A DNA stretch of 64,000 nt, taken from the UHGV virus genome UHGV-0371537, one strand, 5' to 3'. Below, piece after piece: positions 1,914-64,000 of the stretch. The position numbers and the translations under genes were made by a program. The DNA is from a virus. Positions within the stretch are counted from its first letter, which is position 1, and each line of letters begins with the position of its first letter. The notes under the pieces were generated by a model. The model ran no database searches. It worked only from the letters and a program-made list of their open reading frames with translations, and was not told the DNA's origin.

Positions 1914-1969
1914 TCAATAACCTCGGGCGGCTTATCATAAAGTCGCCCTTTCATTTGAGAGACTATATC

Positions 1970-2632
1970 ATGGAAAAACTTTATTCTATTATCGTCGGTC
2001 CTGATCCCGACGGATTATTCTTCGCCCCGTTGTCCTATGTCGCCCACGCCCGTATCGGCAGTCATTACGCGTATTGCACACATGGTCACGACGGTTCCAA
2101 TGTGCTCCATTATAGTCGCCTGAACGATTTCCTGGCACTTCAACCAGAAGACGTTGTGCTGGCGCGTCGCGTGTTCATTGATTTCAACGCGATGCACAAC
2201 AACGAAATCGACGCTCGCTACCATGCCATGCGTTCTATGGAAGGGCGAGACTGCATTTATCGTATCGACCATTTTGGTGAGTTTACCCAATCGATCGATT
2301 GGTTCGTTTCGGACAAGACATTGGGCGAAAGAATTGTCACGACTCCGTGGGTGCATGCGGAACAACTTCGTGTGTCTACCGATGCGTACAAAGAAGTCGA
2401 CAATCTGTGCAACAAGTTCCGCATCTCGGTGACCTGTAATCAAGACCTGGGAGAAGAGATCCAATGGACAGCTGAGTCTCCTCATTTCAGTGACCTGGTG
2501 ATGACAGCAGAAACCCGTTCCCGCGCTGTCGTTCAGTTGGTTCTATGGGCGTTCTACCAGCGCACCCCGTTCTCCTACATGGGGCAGAAAGCGATTGACG
2601 AACTCCTGAAGTCTCACGCGGTGGAGGTATAA
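1970..2632 (+). CDS. hypothetical protein
   Basis: ORF with ATG at 1970 (track ORF begins at TTG 1955); no recognisable motif. Confidence 0.45.
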   Translation: MEKLYSIIVGPDPDGLFFAPLSYVAHARIGSHYAYCTHGHDGSNVLHYSRLNDFLALQPEDVVLARRVFIDFNAMHNNEIDARYHAMRSMEGRDCIYRIDHFGEFTQSIDWFVSDKTLGERIVTTPWVHAEQLRVSTDAYKEVDNLCNKFRISVTCNQDLGEEIQWTAESPHFSDLVMTAETRSRAVVQLVLWAFYQRTPFSYMGQKAIDELLKSHAVEV

Positions 2633-11772: not shown

Positions 11773-12387
11773 ATGACGATGACAACGTTGAAGGCCATGG
11801 CCTTGTCCGTGACCTTTACCATTGCCAGCGGGAATGTGCACGCTTCCCAAAATACAAGTCAATGTGTTTATGATTTCTCTGAGCAACAACTTAATACGCT
11901 GGCAACTGCCTATCACATAGGCAAGACACAAGATCTTGGTTACACTCTGGCCGCCATATCTTGGCGAGAGAGCCGCGCTGGTGAAGATGTAGTGTCAATG
12001 CGCTATGGACTCAAGGCGGCCAACATGGGAGCCTTTCAGAACAAGGTGAAGACAGTTGGTGATCGCGAAGGTTGTAAGAATCGCAAGTGCTATGCCAATG
12101 TCGCCATAAAGTTGCTGACCGACCAAGAATATGCCGCGCAAGCCGCCCTCGAAGAGATGCAGTTCTGGCTGACCTATCACAAGCAGAATGTACGCAAATC
12201 CCTCTCCTCTTACAATGCTGGCTTCGCCCGTAATCCCGCATCGAACGCTTATGCCGCTGACGTCGTGAAGAAAGCTAAATATCTTCAGAAATGTGTGTCC
12301 TTCAAAGGCCGGACCATCTCCGAGGTAGATCCTCAGGTGATCGCCATGAACAAGCGCACGATAGAGAAACTGAAGAGGACAAGATAA
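11773..12387 (+). CDS. secreted protein with lytic-transglycosylase (SLT)-like motifs
   Basis: N-terminal signal peptide (MTMTTLKAMALSVTFTIASGNVHA); E-S (ISWRESRAGE), G-x-x-Q (MGAFQ) and YNAG (SSYNAGFARNP) in SLT-like order. Confidence 0.4.
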   Translation: MTMTTLKAMALSVTFTIASGNVHASQNTSQCVYDFSEQQLNTLATAYHIGKTQDLGYTLAAISWRESRAGEDVVSMRYGLKAANMGAFQNKVKTVGDREGCKNRKCYANVAIKLLTDQEYAAQAALEEMQFWLTYHKQNVRKSLSSYNAGFARNPASNAYAADVVKKAKYLQKCVSFKGRTISEVDPQVIAMNKRTIEKLKRTR

Positions 12388-13025
12388 TGAACATCACTCC
12401 ATCTCAGACCGGATATGAACATATCTTGGTCTTCATCGCTCTACAGGGCGCGAAGGAAGGCATCATCGTATCCGAGTACTCGGGGACTGTGCGCCTTGCC
12501 GATTACGTCGCACCCGAGGCGTTCATTAAGAAGTGTATTGATGCGTGGTGCCTCTATGCCCTCGGCACGTATCCTGCCCCTCCTGAGGGCGAGCTGTTGT
12601 TTACTGTACCGACTCCGGCTGCTGGCGATACGGACGCGATCTTTGCCGATATGCTGGCCAAGGGGTATCTGGTGTATGATATCACTCACGATGTCTACTC
12701 CTTCACCTCGCTGAACACCGTGTTTGGGTTCACCATCACGTCTGAAGCCAACATCCCTGACTGGGGCATCTTGGCGTGGGGCGTTGACGGCCTGGGCGCA
12801 ACCTATGCATCGTCCGATGTCGGTCCTGTGTTGATTGATGAGGGTGTAACCATGGAGCAGTACCTTGCTCAGTTCCCTCAGCACAATATCACAGGCAGCG
12901 ACATCATTTTAGTTCAGCCTGGTGCTATCGCTCTCCCCCGTTTGGTGGATGGATGGAAGCCTCAGCTGAAGGATATCATCGCCGGGATCAGATTCCATAT
13001 TCCTGTGGTGAACCCAACGCCGTAA
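12387..13025 (+). CDS. hypothetical protein
   Basis: ATG overlaps upstream stop (TAATGA); track ORF starts earlier in the same frame. Confidence 0.45.
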   Translation: MNITPSQTGYEHILVFIALQGAKEGIIVSEYSGTVRLADYVAPEAFIKKCIDAWCLYALGTYPAPPEGELLFTVPTPAAGDTDAIFADMLAKGYLVYDITHDVYSFTSLNTVFGFTITSEANIPDWGILAWGVDGLGATYASSDVGPVLIDEGVTMEQYLAQFPQHNITGSDIILVQPGAIALPRLVDGWKPQLKDIIAGIRFHIPVVNPTP

Positions 13026-13055
13026 AAATAATTCAATAAAAGGGGCTTTCGCCCC

Positions 13056-13084
13056 TTTACTTCTTCAATATCCTTCCCTATACT
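13056..13084 (+). promoter_or_regulatory. sigma70-like early promoter TTTACT-N17-TATACT
   Basis: -35 TTTACT (13056-13061), 17-bp spacer, -10 TATACT (13079-13084); directly after a hairpin. Confidence 0.55.
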
Positions 13085-13132
13085 TCATTCCATAAGCAGT
13101 ACGACACCAACTTGAAACGAAGGAACTATATT

Positions 13133-13492
13133 ATGGCTATCACCACAAAAACTGAATTGAACGCGATCCTGAAAGAAGCTGGCTTCGGTAGTATCAAACG
13201 CCAGGGCAAGGTTTTACGCGATGGCGGTAAAATCGTAAAGGGCATCATGTTGGGAAGTACTGGCCCGTTGAGCATCAGCTCCCCTCAGTATGACAATCTT
13301 CGTAAACTGGCGCGTGAACTTCTCCAAGAAGACCTCCATATCACGACGCAAGAAACCAATTATGTGGTTTTGGAATGCAACAAATTCATCGTCAGCCTTT
13401 ACATCTGCAGCACCCGCTCATATCCGGTGTCTGAAGGTTATGACCCAATGTATCTGACCCATTATGCTCAGGTTACTGTCAAAGCAAAATAA
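13133..13492 (+). CDS. hypothetical protein
   Basis: ATG at 13133 with GAAGGAA SD; conserved leader shared with genes at 19446 and 26876. Confidence 0.45.
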   Translation: MAITTKTELNAILKEAGFGSIKRQGKVLRDGGKIVKGIMLGSTGPLSISSPQYDNLRKLARELLQEDLHITTQETNYVVLECNKFIVSLYICSTRSYPVSEGYDPMYLTHYAQVTVKAK

Positions 13493-13503
13493 TCAAATTC
13501 AAC

Positions 13504-13530
13504 GGGGAGCTTCGGCTCCTCTTTTGTTTT
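13504..13530 (+). terminator. rho-independent terminator
   Basis: GGAGC-ttcg-GCTCC hairpin followed by TCTTTTGTTTT. Confidence 0.6.
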
Positions 13531-13576: not shown

Positions 13577-15565
13577 ATGGCCACCCCATCTTTCTTAAAT
13601 TTCCTTGAAGAGTCTAAACAATTAGACGAAGCGTTCAACTCCGCTCCGTATGAGCTGACCATGGGTAAGAAGAACGCAGGCGATGTGTTCTTCACCTTCA
13701 TCGACGAAGATGAAAAGGAATACCGTATTCAGTTCTATACCCCACAGGGGCTGGGCAAGAACGTTCGTCAGGTCTTCATCGGCCAGAAGCGCGGCTCCGT
13801 CTACCCTGATGCCATCGCTCGCTTCAAAAACCCAATGCGCGTCATCGCCTCCATGATCGAAGCGACCAAGCAGTTCCTGGCGACCCCTCTGGGCAAGACC
13901 ATCGATGGTTATGCTGTCAACTTCTCTAAGAAAGCGCTGGAACGCGGGATGACCCTGATTCCTAAGATCATCCGCCAGTCCGGCCTGAAGCAGAAACTGA
14001 ACGTCATGGACCTGACTTACGCGCCTGTCCCTGACCGTGGTTATGTGTGGTTGGTCCGCAAGGGCAAAGATCCGGCTCAGGTATTCGACGGTCCGAAGAT
14101 GCAGGGCATCACCTGGGATGATCCAGACAAGGTCGGTGACGTTCCGGTTCAGAACAATACCCCAGATGTGGGGACTTCATCTTCTGTTGATGATTCCAAC
14201 GGATGGAAATTAACTTCAAACGGGGATCAGCCTATGTTGATCTGGGTTGGCAAAGAGAGAGGCCGCATGAACACGGCAAATATCGCTCCCCACTACAATG
14301 AGCCAGGCGTGTATGTTGGCGCATACATGAATGAGAAATCTGTGCGTGGGCAAAGTGCTGATTTCATTGCTCGTCAGTTGAAATTACCGCAAGTCCCTAT
14401 CAGTATCCTGAATGATTTCACCACGGCGTCCACAAAATTTTGGAAAGGTTCTCAGCAGAAGTCTGCGCCAGCTGACTCCAACACCACTATTGGTGCTCGG
14501 GGTGTGGGAACTGGGTCTGGTTCTTCTGAAATCGAAATCAACCGCGACTGGTACAACAGCTCAGACACTGGTCTGGTGTTGAAGAGCGGGCGCGACCCGA
14601 TTCGCGGAAACTACACCCGCTTGATGAGCGGTTCGAGAGAAGTAGCCACATTCTATGGCTATGATTTTGACAAATACCCAGACGGAACTGAAGTATCTTG
14701 GAATATGAAGCGCGGCTTCACCAACCAAGACTTGGTCGGTGCGTCCATGACCAAACAGAAGAAAGGCATGTACGATCAGTACACTTTCAAGAAAGGTGCT
14801 CAGTTAATTCTGGTGGTGGACGTTGATACCAGCAACAATACCAACACCCTCAGTTCTAACGACCTAAAAATCCCGCGCAACGCCGAAGTATTCGGTGAAA
14901 CTGGTAGTGGTTTCTCCGTTCGGTGGGCTGTCAATTTCCCCGAAACGGGAAAATATGCCGGTACTTCTATGATAACCAACGTAACCTATTATCATGACAA
15001 AGGCAAAGTTGCATTCACCCCAATTGTCTCTCAGAAAGGGCGTACCCTGAACAATCCGAAGACATATGAACTTCCTTTGAACAAAGATTTGGTCCAGAGT
15101 GTGATTGATGAGATTTCATCAAAAATGGTATATCTTTCCAGAAACCTCCAACAGTTGAAAAGTCAGACATACAACCCAAACCAGGTTTTCTTGAATGATA
15201 TAACCATCACGGATAAAGGTGAAGTGATTTGGAACGATTACAACTTGTCTGACGGCAAAGTTACACAAATTATGCTGTCCATGATAAGCGCAGAAAATAA
15301 ACGCTTGGAGAAAGTGACAAACAGGCCGGATATCACATTACCAAAGAAACAAGCCGAAGTAGTAGAATTTATAAACCGGATGATTGATATTGATCTCGGA
15401 CCTTATTTGAGAGAACCCAAAAAACGTGATGTGGTATTATTCGACTCTTCTGAATTGTCGATAAACCAACTCAACAACATAGAACGCCTGGGAAGAGAAA
15501 CAGGAAAATGGTCTCTTCAGTCAAACGGCGGTATGGGTCATGCACTATTTCTGAATGTTTGGTGA
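13577..15565 (+). CDS. large hypothetical protein (662 aa)
   Basis: Long ORF with AGGAGAA SD; no motif recognised. Confidence 0.55.
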   Translation: MATPSFLNFLEESKQLDEAFNSAPYELTMGKKNAGDVFFTFIDEDEKEYRIQFYTPQGLGKNVRQVFIGQKRGSVYPDAIARFKNPMRVIASMIEATKQFLATPLGKTIDGYAVNFSKKALERGMTLIPKIIRQSGLKQKLNVMDLTYAPVPDRGYVWLVRKGKDPAQVFDGPKMQGITWDDPDKVGDVPVQNNTPDVGTSSSVDDSNGWKLTSNGDQPMLIWVGKERGRMNTANIAPHYNEPGVYVGAYMNEKSVRGQSADFIARQLKLPQVPISILNDFTTASTKFWKGSQQKSAPADSNTTIGARGVGTGSGSSEIEINRDWYNSSDTGLVLKSGRDPIRGNYTRLMSGSREVATFYGYDFDKYPDGTEVSWNMKRGFTNQDLVGASMTKQKKGMYDQYTFKKGAQLILVVDVDTSNNTNTLSSNDLKIPRNAEVFGETGSGFSVRWAVNFPETGKYAGTSMITNVTYYHDKGKVAFTPIVSQKGRTLNNPKTYELPLNKDLVQSVIDEISSKMVYLSRNLQQLKSQTYNPNQVFLNDITITDKGEVIWNDYNLSDGKVTQIMLSMISAENKRLEKVTNRPDITLPKKQAEVVEFINRMIDIDLGPYLREPKKRDVVLFDSSELSINQLNNIERLGRETGKWSLQSNGGMGHALFLNVW

Positions 15566-16965: not shown

Positions 16966-17319
16966 ATGGTTAACGCGAGTATTTTCATCAACCGTGGACT
17001 GCTTGCTATAGCCCACTCTCATGCCCTGCACTTCGTTACAACGTCCTATGCCAAGCACAAAGCTCTCGGGGAGTTCTACGGGGAACTGGAGGACTTGCTG
17101 GACACGTTTACCGAAGCATACATCGGTGCGGGTGGCCAGTACGTTCCGTCGTTTGAGAACATCAAGCTCTATAACCCAGACCCTATCTCCTATGTCAACA
17201 GCGTGGTGATAGACGTCGATGGCATCTACAGGCAGTGCGACTCCCACCTTCAGAACACGCTTGATGAAATCAAGACGCTGTGCTATCAGACGATCTACAA
17301 ACTGAAGCAGCTGTCGTAA
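16966..17319 (+). CDS. hypothetical protein
   Basis: ORF with TAAATA element about 31 nt upstream. Confidence 0.4.
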   Translation: MVNASIFINRGLLAIAHSHALHFVTTSYAKHKALGEFYGELEDLLDTFTEAYIGAGGQYVPSFENIKLYNPDPISYVNSVVIDVDGIYRQCDSHLQNTLDEIKTLCYQTIYKLKQLS

Positions 17320-17988: not shown

Positions 17989-19046
17989 TGAAATTTCTTG
18001 ACGAGCAATTTATCAACAACGTGTCGCCCCGCCTTGACAAGTTCAAGTGGGAGCGCGTTGGTACTGTCGCAAACTTCCGTTGTCCCCTGTGTGGTGACTC
18101 CACGAAGTCTGCCAACAAGCGCCGTGGATACTTCTTCTATGATCGGGATCATGACTGCTTCCGGTTCAAGTGCCACAACTGCAACCAGATGAATGGCTGG
18201 TCATTTGAGTTCTGGCTGAAGAAGTTCGATGAGCGCCTCTCAACCGAATACAACATGGAGAAGTTCCGTCTGCTGGGCGATACATCAGGCAGACCGCTTC
18301 CTTCCCTGAAGCCGTTACCAAAGCTGACACAGACCGCCCGTATTGGATCAGTGGCGGCGAAACGCGACGAGAGCCTCCTCGGCAATATGCTGCGCCTTGA
18401 TCTGCTACCGCCTGACCATAAGGCTCGACAGTACGTACAGTGGCGAGGACTACCGGAGAGCACGTGGTCTTTGCTGTATTACACGCAGCACTTCCGACAG
18501 GATCTAAAACAGTTCGAAACAGATCCTGAAAAGCAGCTGAAGATCCCTGATGATGAACGGCTGGTGATTCCATTCTGGACGCAAGACGGGCGCATGAAGA
18601 TCGTCCAGGGGCGCGCATTCGACGAAACAGCCACATTGCGTTATGCAACAGTCAAACCCAAGGACGAAGACACGAAGGTGTACGGTGAAGACCGGGTTAA
18701 CTTTCACAAGACCAAGCTGGTCGTGGAAGGTCCGATTGACAGCCTCTTCCTACCCAATTGCATGGCATCAGCTGATGCGGATTTGCTGAGTGTGAAGGGT
18801 GACATCTATATCCCTGATAACCAGTACCGGAACCCGCAGGTGTGTGACGGCATTCAGAAGATGATAGATAAAGGTGTCAAGGTCGTGTTGTTCCCGCCGA
18901 GTATGCCATGGAAAGATATCAACGACATGGTCATGCCATCGAAGGGTAACATGGCCATACGAGACCTCCTGAAGCTGATTGCCCAGAACGTCTACCAGGG
19001 GATGGCCGCATCACTGCAATTTGCCGAACTGAGGAAAGTGAAATGA
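17988..19046 (+). CDS. DNA primase, T4 gp61-like (zinc ribbon)
   Basis: N-terminal zinc ribbon CPLCGDS...CHNC; ATG overlaps upstream stop; replication-gene context. Confidence 0.6.
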   Translation: MKFLDEQFINNVSPRLDKFKWERVGTVANFRCPLCGDSTKSANKRRGYFFYDRDHDCFRFKCHNCNQMNGWSFEFWLKKFDERLSTEYNMEKFRLLGDTSGRPLPSLKPLPKLTQTARIGSVAAKRDESLLGNMLRLDLLPPDHKARQYVQWRGLPESTWSLLYYTQHFRQDLKQFETDPEKQLKIPDDERLVIPFWTQDGRMKIVQGRAFDETATLRYATVKPKDEDTKVYGEDRVNFHKTKLVVEGPIDSLFLPNCMASADADLLSVKGDIYIPDNQYRNPQVCDGIQKMIDKGVKVVLFPPSMPWKDINDMVMPSKGNMAIRDLLKLIAQNVYQGMAASLQFAELRKVK

Positions 19047-19249
19047 CGTTAGAAGAACTGAACAAGCTGGACGACGGGGAGATCGTGCGGGGGTACTTGA
19101 AATCCCGTGAGGGTTATGTCCTATCTGGGGAAGAGTCTCCGAGTTTCATCCACGGCTGGAAGAATGGTCAGGTGGACTTCCATGGTGTTCCCATCAGTCC
19201 TGAGCAGGCCGAATTGGCTCGCGAGTTTGTAAGATTTCGCCCGAGCTAA
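19043..19249 (+). CDS. hypothetical small protein
   Basis: Start overlaps primase stop; terminator follows. Confidence 0.35.
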   Translation: MTLEELNKLDDGEIVRGYLKSREGYVLSGEESPSFIHGWKNGQVDFHGVPISPEQAELAREFVRFRPS

Positions 19250-19278
19250 AACTTTTTACTTCACATCACCCTCCCTCC

Positions 19279-19306
19279 AGGCCTCGTCGAATGAGGCCTT
19301 TTAAAA
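19279..19306 (+). terminator. rho-independent terminator
   Basis: GGCCTC-gtcgaat-GAGGCC hairpin followed by TTTTAAAA. Confidence 0.6.
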
Positions 19307-19343
19307 TACTTCAAAAATATTTTAAAAATTTATTGAAAAAGAC

Positions 19344-19372
19344 TTTACTCTTCAATAATGATGCACTATTAT
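19344..19372 (+). promoter_or_regulatory. sigma70-like early promoter TTTACT-N17-TATTAT with AT-rich upstream region
   Basis: -35 TTTACT (19344-19349), 17-bp spacer, -10 TATTAT (19367-19372); preceded by TTTTAAAA repeats (UP-element-like). Confidence 0.55.
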
Positions 19373-19445
19373 AGTTCACATAGGGCGGTAACACACCGCC
19401 GAATGAAAAGTGAAACGAACCAACTACATTATGAGGAATTACATC

Positions 19446-19934
19446 ATGGCTACTACCAAAACTCTGATCACCAACGGCACCATCTCTTTCGAACTGAACA
19501 CCGAAGTTGCTAAAGTTGAAATGTTCCGCATCGCTCAGGCAGCTGGCTTCACTGGTGGCAAAACTTCCTTCATGAACCTGCTGAACGGCAAAGTGGAAGC
19601 GACTAACGGCTTCACCCTGGTAGAGCAGACTGTGGTTGACAAAGCCGTGGTTGCTAAGGCTGCTGACAAAGTTGGCATGCTGAAAGACCTGGGTCACGAC
19701 ATCCACGTTGTCGAAGCGAATACCGAAACTTACGGCACCATCGTAGTCGGTAAAGGTCGCATCCAGCTGAACCCACTGAACAACGGTTCCTTCTCTGTGA
19801 TGGTCTTCCCTAAGAAGGGCTATGACAACACAGACATCGTGAAAGCTGCTGGCGGCGAAGCGAAAGCTCAGTATGTCAAAATGGGTAAACTGAGCGCCAA
19901 AGACGTTCAGACCCTGGTGAGCAAACTGGCTTAA
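19446..19934 (+). CDS. hypothetical protein (promoter-gene-terminator unit)
   Basis: ATG 19446 with GAGGAA SD; strong promoter upstream and hairpin downstream. Confidence 0.5.
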   Translation: MATTKTLITNGTISFELNTEVAKVEMFRIAQAAGFTGGKTSFMNLLNGKVEATNGFTLVEQTVVDKAVVAKAADKVGMLKDLGHDIHVVEANTETYGTIVVGKGRIQLNPLNNGSFSVMVFPKKGYDNTDIVKAAGGEAKAQYVKMGKLSAKDVQTLVSKLA

Positions 19935-26777: not shown

Positions 26778-26804
26778 AAGCCCCTCAATGAGGGGCTTTA
26801 CTTT
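26778..26804 (+). terminator. rho-independent terminator
   Basis: GCCCCTC-aat-GAGGGGC hairpin followed by TTTACTTTTG. Confidence 0.6.
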
Positions 26805-26825
26805 TGAAACACCCTCCCCTATACT
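26797..26825 (+). promoter_or_regulatory. sigma70-like early promoter TTTACT-N17-TATACT
   Basis: -35 TTTACT (26797-26802), 17-bp spacer, -10 TATACT (26820-26825); same architecture as 13056..13084. Confidence 0.55.
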
Positions 26826-26875
26826 TCCCAATAATTCATTGGCATTCGCCACAAATTGAAAGCGGGAACTATATC

Positions 26876-27337
26876 ATGACAAACAAAGTGCTCACCAACC
26901 CACTGCACAACTTCGGTTACATTCAGCTTCCTCTGGTGATTGATACCCTATACGCTGATGACAAAGAGGAGATCTGTTGGTCTCCAACCGCTCTGATTGA
27001 ACGCGAAATCTTCAAGTCTGTTGTTGATGTTATGTTCCGTATCGGTCGCAATGCACCTCTGGTCTACCTCGGCAAAGCAACTGAACTGAAGACAAGCCAC
27101 AACGAACGCTTCCTGCGCATTGATACTACCGGGTGCTCCCAGCAAGACTTCAACACACTGCGCAATTATGTTCTGGTCAACCGCCCGGTATCCCAGCATC
27201 GTCCTTACCTGACGTCAATGCACATAGACAGTTTCATCACTGACGTACACCTGCAGGCTGAAACCCTCCATGAAGAGGAAACAGGCCGAGCTATCGACAC
27301 TGTCTTAAATATGGTTGTGATCACCCTCGCGGAGTAG
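26876..27337 (+). CDS. hypothetical protein
   Basis: ATG 26876 preceded by the conserved TTGAAA..GGAACTATAT leader; track ORF starts earlier. Confidence 0.45.
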   Translation: MTNKVLTNPLHNFGYIQLPLVIDTLYADDKEEICWSPTALIEREIFKSVVDVMFRIGRNAPLVYLGKATELKTSHNERFLRIDTTGCSQQDFNTLRNYVLVNRPVSQHRPYLTSMHIDSFITDVHLQAETLHEEETGRAIDTVLNMVVITLAE

Positions 27338-36726: not shown

Positions 36727-36753
36727 TAATTCCTTCAACAATGAGGCTATATC

Positions 36754-37497
36754 ATGTCACAAATCTATCGTCTGTTTGGGCTGGATTTCACACCAGCTCG
36801 TCTTGATGTGAAACTGACCACCTTCGAACCAACCGGATTTGAAGTGGGGTGCGCTCTGGGGTTTAATCGCCAGGGTAAATCTGTCCGTGAACAAAACATC
36901 TTGGATGTCTTGGGCGTTGAGTGGGATAGCCCTACCGCCTTGGATTTAGAAGATCAGGTCAAGTATGGGAATCAAGAAATCGCAGACTTCTTGCGTGATG
37001 TCTTGGCTGGCTACGAACACGCAAAATCCCATGTGAAAATGGCACAAGAAGCGTGTCTCAGACTATCACATTGCCTGTATTACCTTGGCCGCCACCGCAG
37101 TGATATGCAAATCGATTTCCCTGTCAATGTTCTGGAGCAATTCTCCAAGACTGAGTTTTACCTGGCGCAGGCTGATGGTGTGGTCATGAAAGCGAGTGAT
37201 GTGTTCAAGCACACCGCGAACGTGTCCAACGGGCATTTGCTGGTTGGGTGTGATCAGGTTGAACTGAAGATTGACCCAGACATGGAATATGACCAGAACA
37301 CCTGTCGGGCGATTCACAATTACATCAGCGTGATTGTTGAAACTCTGTACAGTGCGATTGAAGAAGTCATGGCCACTGAACAAAGGGAAGAAGTGATTCG
37401 CAGAGTTCGGGAAAACGTCGAAGCCAGAGTGAAACTGCAGTTCACACCATCTGAATATTCAGAAGACATCCCCAACTTCTACTTGCTGGATAAGTGA
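36754..37497 (+). CDS. hypothetical protein
   Basis: ATG 36754 after TGAGG SD. Confidence 0.45.
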   Translation: MSQIYRLFGLDFTPARLDVKLTTFEPTGFEVGCALGFNRQGKSVREQNILDVLGVEWDSPTALDLEDQVKYGNQEIADFLRDVLAGYEHAKSHVKMAQEACLRLSHCLYYLGRHRSDMQIDFPVNVLEQFSKTEFYLAQADGVVMKASDVFKHTANVSNGHLLVGCDQVELKIDPDMEYDQNTCRAIHNYISVIVETLYSAIEEVMATEQREEVIRRVRENVEARVKLQFTPSEYSEDIPNFYLLDK

Positions 37498-46217: not shown

Positions 46218-46246
46218 TTTACTTTCAAGAATAAAGCGCCTATTAT
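46218..46246 (+). promoter_or_regulatory. sigma70-like early promoter TTTACT-N17-TATTAT
   Basis: -35 TTTACT (46218-46223), 17-bp spacer, -10 TATTAT (46241-46246). Confidence 0.55.
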
Positions 46247-46289
46247 TTAATCTCTATTGAAGAGTTGTTACTAAATCATGAGGCTGGAA

Positions 46290-47483
46290 ATGAACGCCAA
46301 AACATTCAACATTCCGATCGACAATGAAGGGCTAGTGGTTGAGCGACTGAAAAAGCTCGAGCGCACTGCTGTCCGTCTGGGTGTACCATTCCCGACTGTG
46401 ACTTATGGTGAACCCTTCAAGACCCACACCCGTGACTTCACTGGTGAGATCCTCACTCACTGGTGGAAGCCCGTCACCCTCGAAGGTGAAGGCATTGACC
46501 GCCCGGTGTCATACGGTGGTTGGAAAATCATTGGTCAGTTCAATCACGAATACCCAAAGGTCATTCTGAACCGACTGTCCGACAATATCAATGCTGACTT
46601 CATCCGTCGCTTCGAGACAGAGAATGTCTCTTGGTGCCAGCATTGCAACCTGCTCATCAATCGCAAGAACACATATGTGATTGAAAACGAGGAAACGCAC
46701 ACTCAGATGCTGATCGGCAGCACCTGCATGCATCATTATGTGCCTCATCAGAAGTCCCTTGACGCGATCATGTCTTACTATCTGGGAATCCAGGAGTTCT
46801 TCATGCCGGATGAAGATGATCCAGAGGGCATCTATCGCGTTCGTAACGAACAATTCACAGATACCCACAATTACCTGCGTGCGTGCTTCCAGGTGATGCT
46901 GTCTGGCGTAGACATCAAGTCTGAACTATTTGACAAAGTCCTGGGCTATGTCCGGTCTTATCAGAAACCAAAAGCAGGTTCCGATGAAGAGCATTTCGTA
47001 TACAAGGCACACGAGTACCGTGAAGACGCCGAGTCAGAAATGTACCACATGAAGCTCTTCATCAGTGCGCTGTCTGAATCCAATGAATTCAACGTTCGCC
47101 TGAAACGCATGTGTGAACCGGGCTACCACCTGATCAAGGACGATAACACAGTCCGCTGGGGTGCCAAGAAGTATTACGATTACATCCATCGCCCTCGCGC
47201 CGACCGCAAGACAGAGAACAAATGGGTGGGCGAAGTCGGGGAGATGCTGGAAGTACAAGTCAGGTTCGACAAGCGCGTCTTCCTCTTCTCCAATGAATAC
47301 GGTGACAGCTACCTGTTTACTTTCAAAACAGTAGAAGGCAATACAATTACCTGGAAGACCTCTTGTATGGATACAGAGTTCTTGCAGGGCGATATGATCA
47401 TCCGTGGTCGTGTCAAAGAACTGACTGAGTACAACGGTGTTAAACAAACTCAGGTCACCCGAGCCAAATTGAGGAAATTATGA
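46290..47483 (+). CDS. hypothetical protein (Cys/His-rich centre)
   Basis: ATG 46290 (MNAKTF...); no confident family. Confidence 0.5.
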   Translation: MNAKTFNIPIDNEGLVVERLKKLERTAVRLGVPFPTVTYGEPFKTHTRDFTGEILTHWWKPVTLEGEGIDRPVSYGGWKIIGQFNHEYPKVILNRLSDNINADFIRRFETENVSWCQHCNLLINRKNTYVIENEETHTQMLIGSTCMHHYVPHQKSLDAIMSYYLGIQEFFMPDEDDPEGIYRVRNEQFTDTHNYLRACFQVMLSGVDIKSELFDKVLGYVRSYQKPKAGSDEEHFVYKAHEYREDAESEMYHMKLFISALSESNEFNVRLKRMCEPGYHLIKDDNTVRWGAKKYYDYIHRPRADRKTENKWVGEVGEMLEVQVRFDKRVFLFSNEYGDSYLFTFKTVEGNTITWKTSCMDTEFLQGDMIIRGRVKELTEYNGVKQTQVTRAKLRKL

Positions 47484-49755: not shown

Positions 49756-50013
49756 ATGGACGAGCTATTCGCATTGGTGTGGTCATTAACGTTCTTGCTG
49801 TCCCTGGTTGTCAGCTCGCTTGTGATGGTGCTGGTGTGGATAGCTATTCCCGACATTAAGAACCACAGGGTGCTCATTGCCGTGATGATCCTCGGCCTGA
49901 GCACTTCCCTTACTCTTCACTATTCCAAACAGGAGTATAATCCTGACAAACATTACAAGACATTAGCGGAACGATATCATGATTTCAAAACTTCGAGAAG
50001 TCAAGGAAAATAA
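49756..50013 (+). CDS. small membrane protein
   Basis: Two hydrophobic segments. Confidence 0.35.
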   Translation: MDELFALVWSLTFLLSLVVSSLVMVLVWIAIPDIKNHRVLIAVMILGLSTSLTLHYSKQEYNPDKHYKTLAERYHDFKTSRSQGK

Positions 50014-50320
50014 TGACTCTCTGTTCCTATTGAAATTCTTGAAGATGATGGGGATGAACCAGAGCGCATTGACCAGGGCGTTGTCGTGCTCTAACGTGGT
50101 GAACCATTGGGCGATGGGTTATCGCCAGATTCCTGTTTCCTTCAAGCGGTTCATGCTGGTGTTGCGGTTTATTCACGAACTGGACCTCATGCCAGAGTTG
50201 ATGAAATACATCAAACACCATGAATCCGAGGGCTGGGGGTCTTCTGATATCAAGGAGACCAACTGGCTGAAACTAAACGATGTAGACACTGGGCGAAATA
50301 AGAGGAAGCGCGAATGCTGA
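49979..50320 (+). CDS. hypothetical protein
   Basis: ORF overlapping neighbours. Confidence 0.35.
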   Translation: MISKLREVKENNDSLFLLKFLKMMGMNQSALTRALSCSNVVNHWAMGYRQIPVSFKRFMLVLRFIHELDLMPELMKYIKHHESEGWGSSDIKETNWLKLNDVDTGRNKRKREC

Positions 50321-55859: not shown

Positions 55860-55870
55860 GGTCTCAGCCC

Positions 55871-55878
55871 TTAAATAG
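55871..55878 (+). promoter_or_regulatory. late promoter variant (TTAAATAG), plus strand
   Basis: TAAATA core about 31 nt upstream of ATG 55910. Confidence 0.45.
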
Positions 55879-55892
55879 ATAGAGTGTTATGG

Positions 55893-55900
55893 CTATTTAG
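55893..55900 (-). promoter_or_regulatory. late promoter variant (CTAAATAG), minus strand
   Basis: Reverse complement of CTATTTAG; about 33 nt upstream of start 55859; inverted-repeat partner of the plus-strand element. Confidence 0.45.
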
Positions 55901-55909
55901 GACTAAATT

Positions 55910-56524
55910 ATGAGCAACTATCTTCAGGGGAAATACACCCCGGTTAATCCCAAGAAGTACCAGGGGAATGTGAACAACATCATCTTCCGCTCTTCGCTGG
56001 AGTTGGTGGCTTTCAAGTTCTGTGATATGAACTCCGCGATAGTGAAGTGGTCGTCTGAAGAGACTGTAATCCCTTACGTGTCTCCGGTTGACGGTCGGAC
56101 CCATCGTTACTTCATGGACCTCAAGGTGTGGACACACCGTGAAGGACAGGAAGAACTCCAGGTCACCCTCATTGAGATCAAGCCCAAAGACCAGATTAAG
56201 CAGCCGAAGAAGACTCCGTCTATGAAGGAATCAACCTTCAACAATGCGATGCGAACCTGGCTGGTCAACTCCGCCAAATGGGAAGCCACCCGCGAACTGT
56301 GTGCCAAGAAGAACTGGAAGTTCATTATCTGGACTGAAGAGCATCTTGTCCCAGGCGAAGATCCCGATGTTCGCAAACAGTTCGAACTGAAGTCGAAGAA
56401 GAAACGGGATATGGAGATGGAAGACCGCCGTCGTGCCGAACGCGTCAGATTCTTGAAAGAACAGATGCGGAAGGAGATTCATCCCGCCCCAACGGAACGG
56501 GATGATGGGCTGTTGCTTCCCTAA
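55910..56524 (+). CDS. late protein, possibly head-completion (gp4-like)
   Basis: FRSSLELVAF ... DLKVW ... IEIKPK pattern; recalled resemblance only. Confidence 0.3.
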   Translation: MSNYLQGKYTPVNPKKYQGNVNNIIFRSSLELVAFKFCDMNSAIVKWSSEETVIPYVSPVDGRTHRYFMDLKVWTHREGQEELQVTLIEIKPKDQIKQPKKTPSMKESTFNNAMRTWLVNSAKWEATRELCAKKNWKFIIWTEEHLVPGEDPDVRKQFELKSKKKRDMEMEDRRRAERVRFLKEQMRKEIHPAPTERDDGLLLP

Positions 56525-63149: not shown

Positions 63150-64000
63150 TTATAGGCCAAGAGCCTTTTCAAGGTCATCAAGATCTTCAGCGTACAGATC
63201 AATGTCCTCTTTCTTACTTAATTCCTTGTGTTGTGCTTCAAGGTTCTCAATCTGCTTGAGTAGGCGCTCACGGGCATCCAAGGTGATGGATGATAGAGGC
63301 ATCTTGAACAATTCGTCAAGGTCACCATCAAAGTCTGGGTAGTCTGTCTGGAACAATGCCTTCAGCTCATCAAGACTGCGTCGTAGGTCAGTCACCACAG
63401 CCCATGCAATAAACAGGGCACGATTGTTCAGCTTACGAATTCTGTCGGCCATATCCTTCAACAGATACTGGCGACGGTCTTCATACCGTGACAGGCGATA
63501 GTTGAAGAACGGCAACAACATATCCTGCCAACCAGCATAACGATGGATTACCCCGTCTTCATCCCATGCTGTCCAAACAGGCTTGTTGGCAGAGTACAAC
63601 TTGAACATCTGCTCAACCTGTTCATCACTCAGCTTAGAGAGTTCACCCCGCTTGAATACAACCGTGATATCCCAGCCGTCTTCGGTCGTGTCGTTGGCGT
63701 ACTCGGTCAGGATACCAGCCTTGTACAGAGGCAGCAACACCTTGGTCTCATAGGTCTTGGCAAACCAACCCACTGGGACTTCGGTGATATGCAGGGTGGT
63801 GGCATTGACGCGACGGAAGATGCCGCGACTGTATGCCCTTCCTTCCTCAGTATAGCCTGTCTCCCCTTTGTAGCCGTTCCAGTACGGTTTTAAGTCTTTC
63901 GGGTCTTCGCCACGGAGAAGCGCTCTCAGGGCACTGAGCACGGACTTAACGCAATGACAAGGGGTGTCGGTGGAATATCCGGTGCCGATACCATTGATCC
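63150..64000 (-). CDS. type II DNA topoisomerase subunit, 5'-partial (continues beyond window end)
   Basis: Frame open from window end; translation upstream of the track start contains GIGTGYST, resembling the topo II GIGTGW motif; C-terminal coiled-coil. Confidence 0.5.
   Translation of the reverse strand, partial: INGIGTGYSTDTPCHCVKSVLSALRALLRGEDPKDLKPYWNGYKGETGYTEEGRAYSRGIFRRVNATTLHITEVPVGWFAKTYETKVLLPLYKAGILTEYANDTTEDGWDITVVFKRGELSKLSDEQVEQMFKLYSANKPVWTAWDEDGVIHRYAGWQDMLLPFFNYRLSRYEDRRQYLLKDMADRIRKLNNRALFIAWAVVTDLRRSLDELKALFQTDYPDFDGDLDELFKMPLSSITLDARERLLKQIENLEAQHKELSKKEDIDLYAEDLDDLEKALGL

What the first reader, a model, noticed from the sequence alone, without database searches (positions are those of the whole stretch)
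13112..13135. Conserved 5' leader element shared by three unrelated genes
The ~22 nt immediately upstream of and including the start codon are near-identical for three genes with unrelated products: CTTGAAACGAAGGAACTATATTATG (13133), GTGAAACGAACCAACTACATTATG (19409..19433, then AGGAATTACATCATG to the 19446 start) and TTGAAAGCGGGAACTATATCATG (26856..26878). Two of them also share the same TTTACT-N17-TATACT promoter after a terminator. Conservation extends past the Shine-Dalgarno into the spacer and start codon, suggesting a common translational operator or a duplicated expression cassette.
Basis: seen in the sequence. Interest (0 to 1): 0.55.

Follow-up and report, generated by a model that had tools for sequence, protein, structure and literature searches.

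The report
Shared ribosome-binding module of phage early-gene cassettes
The near-identical ~22 bases in front of three unrelated genes are real and are one copy-type of a standard "start-associated" ribosome-binding module that ViI-like (Ackermannviridae) phages place behind a stereotyped early promoter, and behind which different small genes are swapped between related phages.

Summary
The window comes from an Ackermannviridae (Agtrevirus/Limestonevirus-like) phage.

**The motif.** TTGAAM-N3-4-AGGAACTAYATY-ATG sits in fixed register at the start codons of 13133, 19446 and 26876. It also occurs at 1970, and in weaker form at 49979, 36754, 57505(-) and 11773. That is 8 hits against 0.7 expected.

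**In the related complete genome Ag3:**
- 16 of 213 annotated starts carry the motif, and 16 of its 22 genomic occurrences lie exactly at a start.
- All 16 genes are of unknown function.
- 7 of the 8 genes behind a T4-type early promoter (TTTACT-N17-TAYWMT) have it.
- These initiation regions are predicted to be unusually unstructured.

**The site-1 cassette.** This 110-nt unit (AT-rich box, GC stem-loop, promoter, leader, motif) is present about twice per genome in 274 family genomes. In different phages the same leader is followed by five mutually unrelated ORFs, and homology ends at the ATG.

**Best reading.** The motif is the translation-initiation end of a PeSL-like mobile early-expression cassette. 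It is analogous to the start-associated sequences of cluster K mycobacteriophages, and it doubles as a recombination joint.

**What remains open.** A RegA homolog exists in relatives, outside the window, so a translational-operator role is possible but untested. This is a new member of known kinds and of moderate interest.

The parts
13026..13041 (+). AT-rich region after the stop codon of the upstream gene (12291..13025). It includes a TTCAATAA box at 13032-13039.
   Evidence: Sequence. TTCAATAA is enriched (10 in the window against 2.5 expected) and concentrated at promoter cassettes. The region is conserved in 20 related genomes.
13042..13055 (+). GC stem-loop GGGGC-tttc-GCCCC that abuts the -35 hexamer. 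It is terminator-like, and its T tract is the -35 element.
   Evidence: The stem is invariant and the loop varies among relatives (tttc, aaac, aaaa, tttt, gaaa, ttcg).
13056..13084 (+). T4-type early promoter: TTTACT (13056-13061), 17-nt spacer, TATACT (13079-13084).
   Evidence: It is conserved in relatives and matches the PeSL promoter consensus TTTACW-N17-TAYWAT of the T4/PST pair (PMC4122927). Activity was not tested.
13112..13135 (+). Start-associated motif, copy 1: TTGAAA (13112-13117), Shine-Dalgarno AAGGA (13120-13124), spacer ACTATATT (13125-13132), ATG (13133-13135).
   Evidence: 15.3 bits. The mRNA is predicted to be unstructured here (z = +1.29).
13133..13492 (+). Variable ORFan (119 aa) behind cassette 1. 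In other family genomes this position holds any of four other, mutually unrelated ORF families.
13504..13521 (+). Stem-loop terminator that closes the variable slot. It is followed by the conserved leader of the next gene (13577..15565).
19279..19299 (+). Terminator stem-loop AGGCCTC-gtcgaat-GAGGCCT followed by TTTT, upstream of cassette 2.
19344..19372 (+). Early promoter TTTACT-N17-TATTAT. It is flanked by an 8-bp inverted repeat, TTATTGAA (19330-19337) and TTCAATAA (19351-19358).
   Evidence: It is conserved in 21 loci.
19383..19400 (+). Hairpin GGGCGG-taacaca-CCGCC near the 5' end of the predicted mRNA.
   Evidence: The stem is kept and the loop length varies across the family.
19410..19433 (+). 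Motif copy 2a, which lacks a Shine-Dalgarno (CC in place of GG): GTGAAACGAACCAACTACATTATG. Its ATG overlaps the Shine-Dalgarno (GAGGA) of the real start.
   Evidence: It is conserved across the family, including loci where this ATG is out of frame or followed by a stop.
19433..19448 (+). Motif copy 2b: GAGGA, spacer ATTACATC, ATG (19446-19448). This is the working initiation region of gene 19446..19934.
   Evidence: 16.0 bits.
26780..26796 (+). GC stem-loop GCCCCTC-aat-GAGGGGC that abuts the -35 hexamer.
26797..26825 (+). Early promoter TTTACT-N17-TATACT.
   Evidence: Both hexamers are invariant in the 20-sequence family alignment.
26856..26878 (+). Start-associated motif, copy 3: TTGAAA, GGGAA, spacer ACTATATC, ATG, in front of gene 26876..27337.
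   Evidence: 17.0 bits. The motif is kept in distant relatives although the middle of the leader is replaced.
1925..1948 (+). Stem-loop GGGCGGCTT-atcata-AAGTCGCCC directly upstream of motif copy 4. There is no promoter between them.
1954..1972 (+).
   Evidence: (18.1 bits, the best hit in the window).
49968..49981 (+). Weaker copy GGAACGATATCATG in front of gene 49979..50320.
   Evidence: 12.0 bits.
36743..36756 (+). Weak copy GAGGCTATATCATG in front of gene 36754..37497.
   Evidence: 8.2 bits.
46218..46292 (+). A second example of the Shine-Dalgarno-less arrangement: promoter TTTACT-N17-TATTAT (46218-46246), TTGAAG (46257-46262), then ACTAAATCATGAGGCTGGAAATG (46270-46292).
   Evidence: Ag3 annotates the second ATG as the start.

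Best explanation
The element is a start-associated sequence: a standard translation-initiation module.

**Anatomy.** It has an A-rich TTGAAM box at about -21 and a Shine-Dalgarno AGGA at -12 to -9. A fixed, G-free 8-nt spacer ACTAYATY follows, and then an ATG.

**Context.** It forms the 3' end of a multi-copy, family-wide early-gene expression cassette of Ackermannviridae phages. The cassette consists of an AT-rich box, a GC stem-loop, a T4-type early promoter (TTTACT-N17-TAYWMT) and a leader of roughly 40 nt. The module also occurs without a promoter, as a 22-25-nt linker between small ORFs.

**Proposed mechanism.** The cassette stops incoming transcription at the stem-loop and restarts it from a strong host-sigma70-type promoter. 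It then presents whichever ORF follows on an unstructured, well-spaced ribosome-binding site. The module is the only sequence that otherwise unrelated cassettes and ORFs share. It therefore also serves as the homology patch where the phage recombination system exchanges ORFs precisely at the ATG. The other end of the exchanged slot is the downstream terminator together with the leader of the next gene.

**What is shown:**
- the sequence, its fixed register at start codons and its enrichment over chance;
- family-wide conservation;
- linkage to the promoter class and to genes of unknown function;
- low predicted RNA structure;
- ORF replacement with the boundary at the ATG.

**What is inferred:**
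- promoter activity and early timing;
- high translation efficiency;
- recombination as the cause of the swaps;
- the absence of any need for a dedicated trans-acting factor.
For: **Register and enrichment.**
- In Ag3, (ACTAYATC with up to 1 mismatch)+ATG occurs 22 times on both strands, and 16 of these lie exactly at annotated starts. Shuffled genomes give 4.0.
- The window has 8 weight-matrix hits against 0.7 expected, all at ORF starts.
- ACTATATC is the commonest 8-mer before starts, 8 times against 3 for the runner-up.

**Link to the promoter class.**
- 7 of 8 Ag3 genes with TTTAC[TA]-N16-18-TAYWNT within 130 nt upstream carry the motif, against 9 of 205 other genes (Fisher 2.5e-8).
- In the window, 3 of the 5 such promoters are the three reported sites, and a fourth has the Shine-Dalgarno-less variant.

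**Link to genes of unknown function.** None of the 16 motif genes has a named function, against 71 of 197 others (p = 0.0016).

**Low structure.**
- Median folding energy over -30..+30 is -4.55 kcal/mol for motif genes against -8.0 for the others (p = 1.7e-5).
- The window leaders fold no better than shuffles, and the motif itself is unpaired in the centroid fold of sites 1 and 3.

**Cassette nature and ORF swapping.**
- The same ~110-nt unit precedes five mutually unrelated ORF families in 20 genomes, and homology ends at the ATG.
- The 3' edge of the slot is a terminator plus a conserved downstream leader.
- One ORF family occurs with different motif variants, and one motif variant occurs with different ORFs.
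- The cassette is found in 274 phage records at 559 places.
- The linker TAATTTGAACCGAAGGAACTATATCATG joins different ORF pairs in Ag3 and in L003.

**Purifying selection.** In the site-3 alignment the motif is as invariant as the promoter hexamers, while the middle of the leader is replaced in distant genera.

**Precedents.**
- PeSL cassettes end in a Shine-Dalgarno and a start codon. Their crossovers map between the -10 element and the ATG (PMC2839356; PMC4122927).
- The strong T7 gene 10 site has the same layout, AAGGAG-ATATACAT-ATG.
Against: - A generic need for a good ribosome-binding site does not explain near-invariant spacer bases. Variation is limited to C/T changes at -4, -2 and -1.
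- It also does not explain conservation of copies that lack a Shine-Dalgarno. These are site 2a, the 46270 copy, gp44 of LIMEstone-like phages and the gp45 leader. Such copies hint at sequence-specific recognition by something other than the anti-Shine-Dalgarno.
- Two motif genes (19446 and 26876) are conserved core-like genes, not swapped ORFans.
- Promoter activity, timing, translation strength and recombination at the motif are all inferred from sequence.
- Gene starts in the window are my own calls, guided by the Ag3 and SKML-39 annotation.
Confidence: 0.58

Rival explanations
1. The motif is a translational operator. It would be the RNA binding site of a phage-encoded repressor, most plausibly the family's RegA homolog. 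The repressor would compete with the 30S subunit and shut off this set of early mRNAs together later in infection. This reading can coexist with the cassette explanation.
For: - Ag3 encodes a RegA family protein next to gp62/gp44/gp45. It scores 118.7 bits against PF01818 and E = 3.8e-26 against T4 RegA, PDB 1REG.
- RNA-binding residues T18, R21 and W81 are conserved.
- RegA is present in eight further family loci.
- T4 and RB69 RegA sites lie on or just 5' of the AUG, are A+U-rich and are unstructured (PMC3014915). The motif fits all three properties.
- The spacer is more constrained than ribosome binding alone requires.
- Shine-Dalgarno-less copies are conserved directly upstream of the real Shine-Dalgarno at 19446. 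Similar copies sit at gp45 and, in LIMEstone-like phages, at gp44, and genes 44 and 45 are classical RegA targets in T4.
- rIIB of Ag3 has a partial match, GGGAACTACAAGATG.
Against: - The regA start itself lacks the motif, as do gp62, dexA and Ag3 gp44. In T4, regA, 44, 62 and dexA are repressed.
- There is no sequence similarity to the T4 SELEX site aaAAUUGUUAUGUAA or to the RB69 UAA-repeat sites.
- K14 and F106 of T4 RegA are not conserved.
- The 16 clear motif genes are all of unknown function rather than replication genes.
- regA is not in the window.
- No binding or repression data exist.
Confidence: 0.22
2. The similarity is passive homology. The copies would be remnants of duplication and gene conversion among cassettes (concerted evolution). 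The specific spacer and TTGAA sequence would have no function beyond an ordinary Shine-Dalgarno and start.
For: - Leaders share more than the motif in some paralogous cassettes. The string aagcagtacgaca recurs in window site 1 and in Ag3 orf112 and orf178.
- Motif variants are reshuffled among ORFs.
- T4-type recombination needs only short homology (PMC2839356).
Against: - Cassettes with otherwise unrelated leaders share only the motif. Compare site 1, site 3 and the hairpin-type leaders of Ag3 orf137-139.
- The motif stays constant at orthologous site 3 in genera whose protein identity is 28-72%, and the rest of the leader is replaced in the more distant of them.
- Motif-bearing initiation regions are significantly less structured than others.
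Confidence: 0.1
3. The element acts on DNA. It would be a promoter-like site (the family's late promoters read CTAAATA) or an operator half-site related to the TTCAATAA/TTATTGAA boxes around the early promoters. In that role it would control transcription rather than translation.
For: - CTAYATC resembles the CTAAATA late-promoter core seen upstream of late genes in Ag3.
- TTGAA is the reverse complement of the TTCAA core of an enriched promoter-associated box.
- At site 2 the box forms an inverted repeat around the -35 hexamer.
Against: - The motif ends exactly at the ATG in 16 of 22 genomic occurrences. A transcript started from it would lack the Shine-Dalgarno and the start codon.
- TTGAA and ACTATAT lie only 6-8 nt apart, which is too close for -35/-10 spacing.
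- The motif also occurs as a linker inside operons, overlapping the upstream coding sequence.
Confidence: 0.05
4. The spacer and upstream box act as a translational enhancer through extended base pairing with 16S rRNA beyond the anti-Shine-Dalgarno.
For: - Only C/T variation is tolerated at three spacer positions. That pattern would fit pairing with G.
- CUAYAUC can pair with 16S rRNA 682-688, GGUGUAG.
Against: The longest complementary run to E. coli 16S rRNA is 9 nt including 2-3 G-U pairs. That length is reached by 189 of 300 shuffled motifs, and the candidate partner segments are not known to be free single strands.
Confidence: 0.03

Closest known systems
Start-associated sequences (SAS) of cluster K mycobacteriophages (Pope et al. 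2011, PMC3203893), and the 26-bp SAS-like repeat of the Felix O1-like phage Mordin (PMC4611695)
   Same: - A short asymmetric repeat with 11-19 copies per genome, in one orientation, within a few bases of start codons.
- ATG-biased, contains the Shine-Dalgarno core, and has conserved positions that rRNA pairing cannot explain.
- Confined to non-structural genes, mostly hypothetical ones, and found in front of genes of different families.
- Function still untested (PMC12699233).
- The Mordin repeat CCAACAATCCTAAACTGGAGAATCTA has a similar layout to CCAACTTGAAACGAAGGAACTATATC and lies upstream of 8 hypothetical genes in a lytic enterobacterial myophage.
   Different: - There is no sequence homology to GGGATAGGAGCCC.
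- Here the conserved part runs through the spacer right up to the ATG, whereas an SAS ends 3-7 bp before it.
- There are no 17-bp inverted repeats of the extended-SAS type.
- The host and phage family differ.
- Here the motif is tied to a defined promoter class and to ORF replacement.
PeSL (promoter-early stem-loop) cassettes of T4-like phages (Arbiol et al. 2010, PMC2839356; Comeau et al. 2014, PMC4122927)
   Same: - A composite repeat with an AT-rich stretch holding the upstream stop codon, a GC stem-loop and a sigma70/T4-type early promoter. The T4/PST type reads TTTACW-N17-TAYWAT.
- A Shine-Dalgarno and a start codon at the 3' end.
- Association with ORFans.
- Unrelated ORFs exchanged at the element between close relatives, with crossovers mapped between the -10 element and the ATG.
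   Different: - PeSLs were described in Tevenvirinae-type phages (RB49/phi1, T4/PST, KVP40/nt-1), not in ViI-like phages.
- In PeSLs the 3' end is only a generic Shine-Dalgarno plus start. Here a specific 21-nt initiation consensus is conserved, and it also stands alone as an intercistronic linker without a promoter or stem-loop.
- Mini-circle formation has not been examined here.
RegA translational operators of T4 and RB69 (review PMC3014915)
   Same: - Sites on many early mRNAs at, or just 5' of, the AUG.
- A+U-rich and unstructured.
- A RegA homolog is encoded by relatives of this phage.
   Different: - T4 and RB69 sites have no strong consensus and no resemblance to ACUAYAUC.
- Classical targets, including regA itself, mostly lack the motif here.
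- Binding has not been tested.
T7 gene 10 translation initiation region (the pET-vector ribosome-binding site)
   Same: AAGGAG-ATATACAT-ATG-GCT compared with AAGGAA-CTATATT-ATG-GCT. Both have the same Shine-Dalgarno core, a G-free alternating pyrimidine/A spacer of 7-8 nt, and an A/U-rich upstream stretch.
   Different: The T7 site is a single-gene leader, not a repeated element. Its upstream enhancer (TTAACTTTA) differs from TTGAAM. The resemblance is in layout only, with no homology implied.

Membership tests
Start-associated sequence (SAS-type element) | A short asymmetric repeat present in many copies per genome | tested here: met
   There are 22 copies in Ag3 against 4.0 in shuffles, and 8 weight-matrix hits in the 64-kb window against 0.7.
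Start-associated sequence (SAS-type element) | Located in one orientation within a few bases of start codons, with a bias to ATG | tested here: met
   16 of 22 Ag3 copies end exactly at an annotated ATG. All window hits are at ATG starts of ORFs of 112-246 aa.
Start-associated sequence (SAS-type element) | Contains the Shine-Dalgarno core plus conserved positions not explained by 16S rRNA pairing | tested here: met
   AGGA sits at -12..-9, and both the TTGAA box and the spacer ACTAYATY are conserved. Complementarity to 16S rRNA beyond the Shine-Dalgarno is at chance level.
Start-associated sequence (SAS-type element) | Restricted to non-structural genes and found in front of unrelated gene families | tested here: met
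   None of the 16 Ag3 motif genes has a named function, and none is structural. Five unrelated ORF families follow the same leader.
Start-associated sequence (SAS-type element) | Sequence homology to the cluster K consensus GGGATAGGAGCCC | tested here: not met
   The consensus here is TTGAAM-N3-4-AGGAACTAYATC. This element is an analogue, not a homologue.
PeSL cassette | A GC-rich stem-loop next to or within an early promoter, preceded by an AT-rich stretch that holds the upstream stop codon | tested here: met
   At sites 1 and 3 the stem-loops abut the -35 hexamer. At site 2 the terminator lies 45 nt upstream in an AT-rich stretch. Site 3 lacks a clear AT-rich stretch.
PeSL cassette | A sigma70-like or T4-early-like promoter consensus | tested here: met
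   TTTACT-N17-TATACT or TATTAT matches TTTACW-N17-TAYWAT. This is a sequence match only, and activity was not measured.
PeSL cassette | A Shine-Dalgarno and start codon of the downstream gene at the 3' extremity | tested here: met
PeSL cassette | Repeated in the genome and associated with ORFans that differ between related phages | tested here: met
   The cassette occurs at 559 places in 274 records. Seven of 8 promoter-proximal genes carry the motif. Five ORF families occupy the site-1 slot.
PeSL cassette | Demonstrated promoter and terminator activity, and recombination between copies (mini-circles) | not testable with these tools
   This needs reporter assays and inverse PCR on infected cells.
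RegA operator | The phage encodes a RegA family protein | tested here: inconclusive
   RegA is present in Ag3 and in eight related loci. It is absent from the 64-kb window. The syntenic position lies outside the window.
RegA operator | The site overlaps or lies just 5' of the AUG, is A+U-rich and is unstructured | tested here: met
RegA operator | Similarity to known RegA ligands (T4 aaAAUUGUUAUGUAA, RB69 UAA repeats) | tested here: not met
   No resemblance on direct comparison with the sequences quoted in PMC3014915.
RegA operator | Present on regA itself and on replication genes (44, 45, 62, rIIB, dexA) | tested here: not met
   regA, gp62, dexA and Ag3 gp44 lack it. gp45, rIIB and LIMEstone-type gp44 have only partial or displaced copies.
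RegA operator | RegA binding and translational repression | not testable with these tools
   This needs gel-shift or footprinting assays and regA mutants.

The most novel reading that the evidence does not exclude
The motif is a high-information operator of the start-associated type. Through it a phage RNA-binding protein (the divergent RegA homolog or an unknown factor) would switch off a whole regulon of immediate-early ORFan genes. The same 21 nt would double as the homology joint that lets ORFs be exchanged precisely at the ATG, so any newly acquired gene would be plugged at once into both the promoter and the translational shut-off circuit. If so, it would give the first defined consensus for a RegA-type regulon. 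It would also give a testable function for start-associated sequences, which have been unexplained since 2011.
Probability: 0.2. Interest if true: 0.6.

Novelty: new member of a known kind. Interest (0 to 1): 0.36.

Why it matters
- **An accessible test system.** Start-associated sequences have been catalogued in mycobacteriophages since 2011, and their role was still described as unverified in 2025 (PMC12699233). Finding an analogous, well-delimited element in ViI-like phages places the question in easily handled hosts such as E. coli, Salmonella and Shigella. These phages also carry a candidate regulator (RegA) and a clear reporter design.
- **Genome plasticity in therapy phages.** The result extends the PeSL idea of mobile regulatory cassettes from T4-like phages to Ackermannviridae. 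It marks the places where accessory genes are swapped, for example five alternative ORFs at the 13.1-kb slot. These are natural places to look for host-takeover or anti-defence genes.
- **Practical uses.** The motif helps choose start codons in annotation. The cassette is a compact natural expression unit.
- **If it is only a good ribosome-binding site inherited with a cassette,** the finding is useful but ordinary.

Tried and rejected
- **Related loci for gene 13133.** A protein-seeded search of IMG/VR confirmed no relative, because the gene is a variable ORFan. I used the conserved gene 19446 as the anchor instead.
- **Exact 14-mer scan of IMG/VR.** A 14-mer is too short for a collection of that size, so this was uninformative.
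- **Known RNA families.** Rfam found nothing in the window at gathering thresholds. At E <= 1 the only match was a chance hit to CrcZ on the terminator at 13486-13529.
- **RNA structure in the leaders.** There is no significant fold around the motif (z = +1.29, -0.73 and -0.11). Only the 5' hairpins of sites 2 and 3 form.
- **Extended 16S rRNA pairing.** Complementarity is at chance level.
- **Function of the proteins.** The three reported proteins and 1970 have no Pfam match even at E <= 5; 49979 has none at E <= 0.01. PHROG families for all five have unknown function. The alternative ORFs at site 1 also have no real match.
- **A RegB-type nuclease as the reader of the motif.** The gene that some records annotate as RegB (window 16966..17319) matches only DUF5856. 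The motif also lacks the GGAG target of RegB.
- **The motif as a promoter.** This was rejected on register and spacing.
- **Literature.** The Ag3 and LIMEstone genome papers do not mention the motif. No transcriptome of an enterobacterial Ackermannviridae phage was found in the library. No paper in the library describes start-associated sequences in this family.
Full report
**1. What the window is.** The region is 82-95% identical at the DNA level to Ackermannviridae (ViI-like) phages of the Aglimvirinae, such as SKML-39, Ag3, SW16-7 and the Dickeya LIMEstone group. Window 1-64000 runs colinear with, and reversed relative to, about 78-14 kb of Shigella phage Ag3 (FJ373894). I fetched that genome whole, with its annotation, as a full-genome reference.

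**2. The observation.** All three quoted sequences are present.
- Site 1 is at 13112-13135, ending in the ATG of a 119-aa ORF.
- Site 2 is at 19410-19433, followed by a second half-unit, AGGAATTACATCATG, that ends in the ATG at 19446.
- Site 3 is at 26856-26878.

The promoter claim also holds. TTTACT-N17-TATACT lies directly after a GC stem-loop at 13056-13084 and at 26797-26825, and TTTACT-N17-TATTAT lies at 19344-19372.

The match is not chance. AACTAYATYATG with up to one mismatch gives 7 hits against 0.87 expected, and the 23-nt pattern gives 6 against 0.47. The three proteins are unrelated to one another. They have no Pfam domain, and their PHROG families have no known function.

**3. The element is far more widespread than three genes.** I used the 213 usable annotated starts of Ag3.
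- The three bases before the start are ATC in 37 genes.
- The six bases before the start are TAYATC in 15 genes.
- ACTATATC is the commonest 8-mer before starts, 8 times against 3 for the next.
- Sixteen genes have ACTAYATC (up to 1 mismatch) abutting the ATG.
- Genome-wide on both strands that pattern plus ATG occurs 22 times, with 16 exactly at annotated starts. Shuffled genomes give 4.0.
- A TGAAM box lies within -28..-12 in 11 of these 16 genes, against 38 of 197 others.

A weight matrix from these sites finds 8 ATG-anchored hits in the window against 0.7 in shuffles. They are 1970 (the best), 26876, 19446, 13133, 49979, 57505(-), 11773 and 36754, each at an ORF of 112-246 aa.

Pooling 52 distinct instances from the window, Ag3 and 29 related loci gives this consensus: TTGAA at -21..-17, AGGA at -12..-9, and ACTAYATC at -8..-1. 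The spacing between TTGAA and the Shine-Dalgarno varies by 1-2 nt. The information content of the spacer in that set is partly circular, because those positions were used to select the instances.

**4. Which genes carry it, and how their starts look.**
- None of the 16 Ag3 motif genes has an assigned function, against 71 of 197 others (Fisher p = 0.0016).
- Their initiation regions are predicted to be much less structured. Median folding energy over -30..+30 is -4.55 against -8.0 kcal/mol (p = 1.7e-5).
- The three window leaders fold no better than shuffled controls, and the motif itself is unpaired in the centroid fold of sites 1 and 3. Only 5' hairpins form, at sites 2 and 3.
- Nothing matches Rfam.

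**5. The motif is the end of a promoter cassette.** Of 8 Ag3 genes with TTTAC[TA]-N16-18-TAYWNT within 130 nt upstream, 7 carry the motif, against 9 of 205 others (Fisher 2.5e-8). In the window five such promoters exist. Three are the reported sites, and a fourth (46218-46246) is followed by a variant of the motif.

At site 1 the unit has five parts:
- an AT-rich stretch with a TTCAATAA box;
- the stem-loop GGGGC-N4-GCCCC;
- the promoter TTTACTTCTTCAATA...TATACT;
- the leader CATAAGCAGTACGACACCAAC;
- the motif.

This unit is nearly identical in 20 related genomes. The stem is kept and the loop varies. BLAST finds it in 274 phage records, almost all from enterobacterial hosts typical of the family, at 559 places, or about two per genome.

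The motif also occurs without any promoter.
- It follows a stem-loop directly at window 1925-1972.
- The same arrangement is seen at Ag3 orf130, orf137 and orf230.
- It forms a 22-25-nt linker between ORFs. TAATTTGAACCGAAGGAACTATATCATG joins different ORF pairs in Ag3 and in L003.

**6. ORFs are swapped behind it.** The same site-1 leader is followed in different phages by five ORF families that are mutually unrelated by BLASTP:
- MAITTKTE.../MTKTELNN...
- MNAIKTDF...
- MTQLKNFT...
- MKIILDAY...
- MTTVTGFY...

Homology stops at the ATG. One ORF family occurs with different motif variants (cgaaGGAACTATATC against agcaGGAACTACATT), and one variant occurs with different ORFs. This places exchanges within or at the motif.

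The other edge of the slot is a stem-loop terminator (13504-13521 in the window) plus the conserved leader of the next gene.

At site 3 the same leader precedes one of two genes, depending on the phage. One is the 26876 orthologue. The other is an extra 76-aa ORF, after which the 26876 orthologue either has the motif again (L003) or an ordinary site (Kuttervirus-like loci).

**7. Conservation.** In a 20-sequence alignment of site-3 leaders, the downstream protein drops to 28-72% identity. The invariant blocks are the -35 and -10 hexamers, TTGAA, and GG(A/T)ACTA(Y)A(Y)CATG. The middle of the leader is replaced in the distant genera. The site-2 leader is almost invariant over its whole length in 21 loci.

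**8. A second arrangement.** At site 2 the first unit has CC where the Shine-Dalgarno GG should be, and its ATG overlaps the real Shine-Dalgarno: ACTACATTATGAGGAATTACATCATG. The same layout recurs in three other places:
- window 46270-46292 (ACTAAATCATGAGGCTGGAAATG);
- gp44 of LIMEstone-type phages (ACTATATCATGGGAATTCATAATG);
- in displaced form, the conserved gp45 leader (TTGAAC-ccc-ACTATAT-ttt-GAGGA-N7-ATG).

These copies cannot work as ordinary initiation sites. This is the main reason for keeping a sequence-specific reader on the table.

**9. Explanation.** The best-supported reading is that the element is the translation-initiation module of a mobile early-expression cassette. Its features fit an efficient, unstructured ribosome-binding site:
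- an AGGA Shine-Dalgarno, 8 nt from the ATG;
- a G-free spacer alternating pyrimidine and A;
- A at -3;
- an A-rich upstream stretch.

From general knowledge, the 8-nt distance corresponds to the roughly 5-nt aligned spacing reported as optimal in E. coli.

The layout is that of the strong T7 gene 10 site, AAGGAG-ATATACAT-ATG (checked). Because it is the one sequence shared by otherwise different cassettes and ORFs, it is also the natural crossover point for the phage's recombination system. This is what the ORF replacements show.

Promoter activity, early timing, translation strength and the recombination mechanism are all inferences from sequence.

**10. Rivals.**
- **RegA-type operator.** A genuine RegA homolog is encoded by relatives next to gp62/44/45, outside the window. 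The motif has the general properties of RegA sites (PMC3014915). However, regA's own start and most classical targets lack it, and it does not resemble known RegA ligands. I give this about 0.2. It is compatible with the cassette reading.
- **Passive homology through gene conversion.** This is possible. It is disfavoured by conservation at orthologous sites where the flanking leader is replaced, and by the structural bias.
- **A DNA-level promoter or operator role.** This conflicts with the exact register at the ATG.
- **Extended 16S rRNA pairing.** Complementarity is at chance level.

**11. Comparison with what is known.** The closest functional analogues are the start-associated sequences of cluster K mycobacteriophages. 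These are 13-bp repeats with 11-19 copies, found just upstream of ATG starts of non-structural genes of different families, and their function is unknown (PMC3203893). They were still untested in 2025 (PMC12699233). A 26-bp SAS-like repeat has also been reported in the Felix O1-like phage Mordin (PMC4611695).

The closest architectural relatives are the PeSL cassettes of T4-like phages. Their T4/PST promoter consensus, TTTACW-N17-TAYWAT, matches these promoters. They end in a Shine-Dalgarno and a start codon and mediate ORFan shuffling (PMC2839356, PMC4122927).

Every sequence-testable PeSL feature is met. The SAS features are met except sequence homology, so this element is an analogue. Neither element type is mentioned in the Ag3 or LIMEstone genome papers, and no paper in the held library reports start-associated sequences in this family.

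**12. Verdict.** The element is a new member of known kinds (a PeSL-like cassette with an SAS-like initiation module) in a phage family where it does not appear to have been described. Interest is moderate.

Noticed in passing
window 13032-13039, 19330-19337(-)/19351-19358, 37597, 45430, 46209, 58384; Ag3 (L022-L025) 26 sites: The octamer TTCAATAA (and its complement TTATTGAA) is 4-5 times enriched: 10 in the window against 2.5 expected, and 26 in Ag3 against 4.7. Most copies lie at intergenic promoter cassettes, in varying register relative to the -35/-10 hexamers. At site 2 it forms a perfect 8-bp inverted repeat around the -35 hexamer, which could be an UP-like element or a protein binding site. 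Its core is the reverse complement of the TTGAA box of the start motif.
   Followed up: partly
window 19255-19299: Just after the stop codon of gene 19043..19249 there is a half cassette, TTTACTTCACATCACCCTCCCTCC. It has the -35 hexamer and a C-rich spacer like the site 1 and site 3 promoters, but a terminator stem (AGGCCTC...GAGGCCT) sits where the -10 hexamer should be. It looks like a degraded or recombined promoter cassette.
   Followed up: no
window 19344-19448; L001-L021 equivalents: The whole ~100-nt promoter and leader of gene 19446 is almost invariant in 21 family loci. This includes the 5' hairpin GGGCGG...CCGCC and the Shine-Dalgarno-less motif copy. The encoded protein meanwhile drops to 52-72% identity in the more distant loci, so the leader is more conserved than the gene. 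The protein (162 aa, PHROG 3764) has no known function.
   Followed up: partly
window 13133-13521 and the same slot in L001-L020: This slot is a gene-replacement hot spot. Five unrelated small ORFs (76-123 aa), and sometimes two in tandem, occupy it in different phages. It lies between a fixed promoter cassette and a terminator, and none of the ORFs has a known function. They are candidates for accessory host-interaction or anti-defence genes.
   Followed up: partly
window 16966-17319: Several GenBank and RefSeq records annotate this gene as 'RegB' or 'starvation-inducible transcriptional regulator', and Ag3 calls it MobD.6. It matches only Pfam DUF5856 (104 bits). The RegB label is not supported by this search.
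   Followed up: partly
Ag3 (L022-L025) upstream regions, e.g. gp14, gp22 and uvsW; window about 55860-55910: Late genes are preceded by CTAAATA(cc) rather than the T4 late promoter TATAAATA. In the window, the divergent gp48/gp4 intergenic region carries TAAATAG-like boxes on both strands. The Ag3 paper searched with the T4 consensus and found few late promoters.
   Followed up: no
Ag3 record FJ373894, CDS 63481-63621 and 66087-66221: These two small annotated CDS start with CTG. The second has a good Shine-Dalgarno (AGGAGG) upstream. They were left out of the start-site statistics.
   Followed up: no
L147 and L153 (LIMEstone-like loci), gp44 start: In LIMEstone-type phages the clamp-loader gene 44 is preceded by a Shine-Dalgarno-less motif copy, AAACTATATCATG, whose ATG overlaps the real Shine-Dalgarno. 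Ag3-type phages have a different gp44 leader that keeps only TTGAAA. Gene 44 is the classical RegA target in T4.
   Followed up: partly
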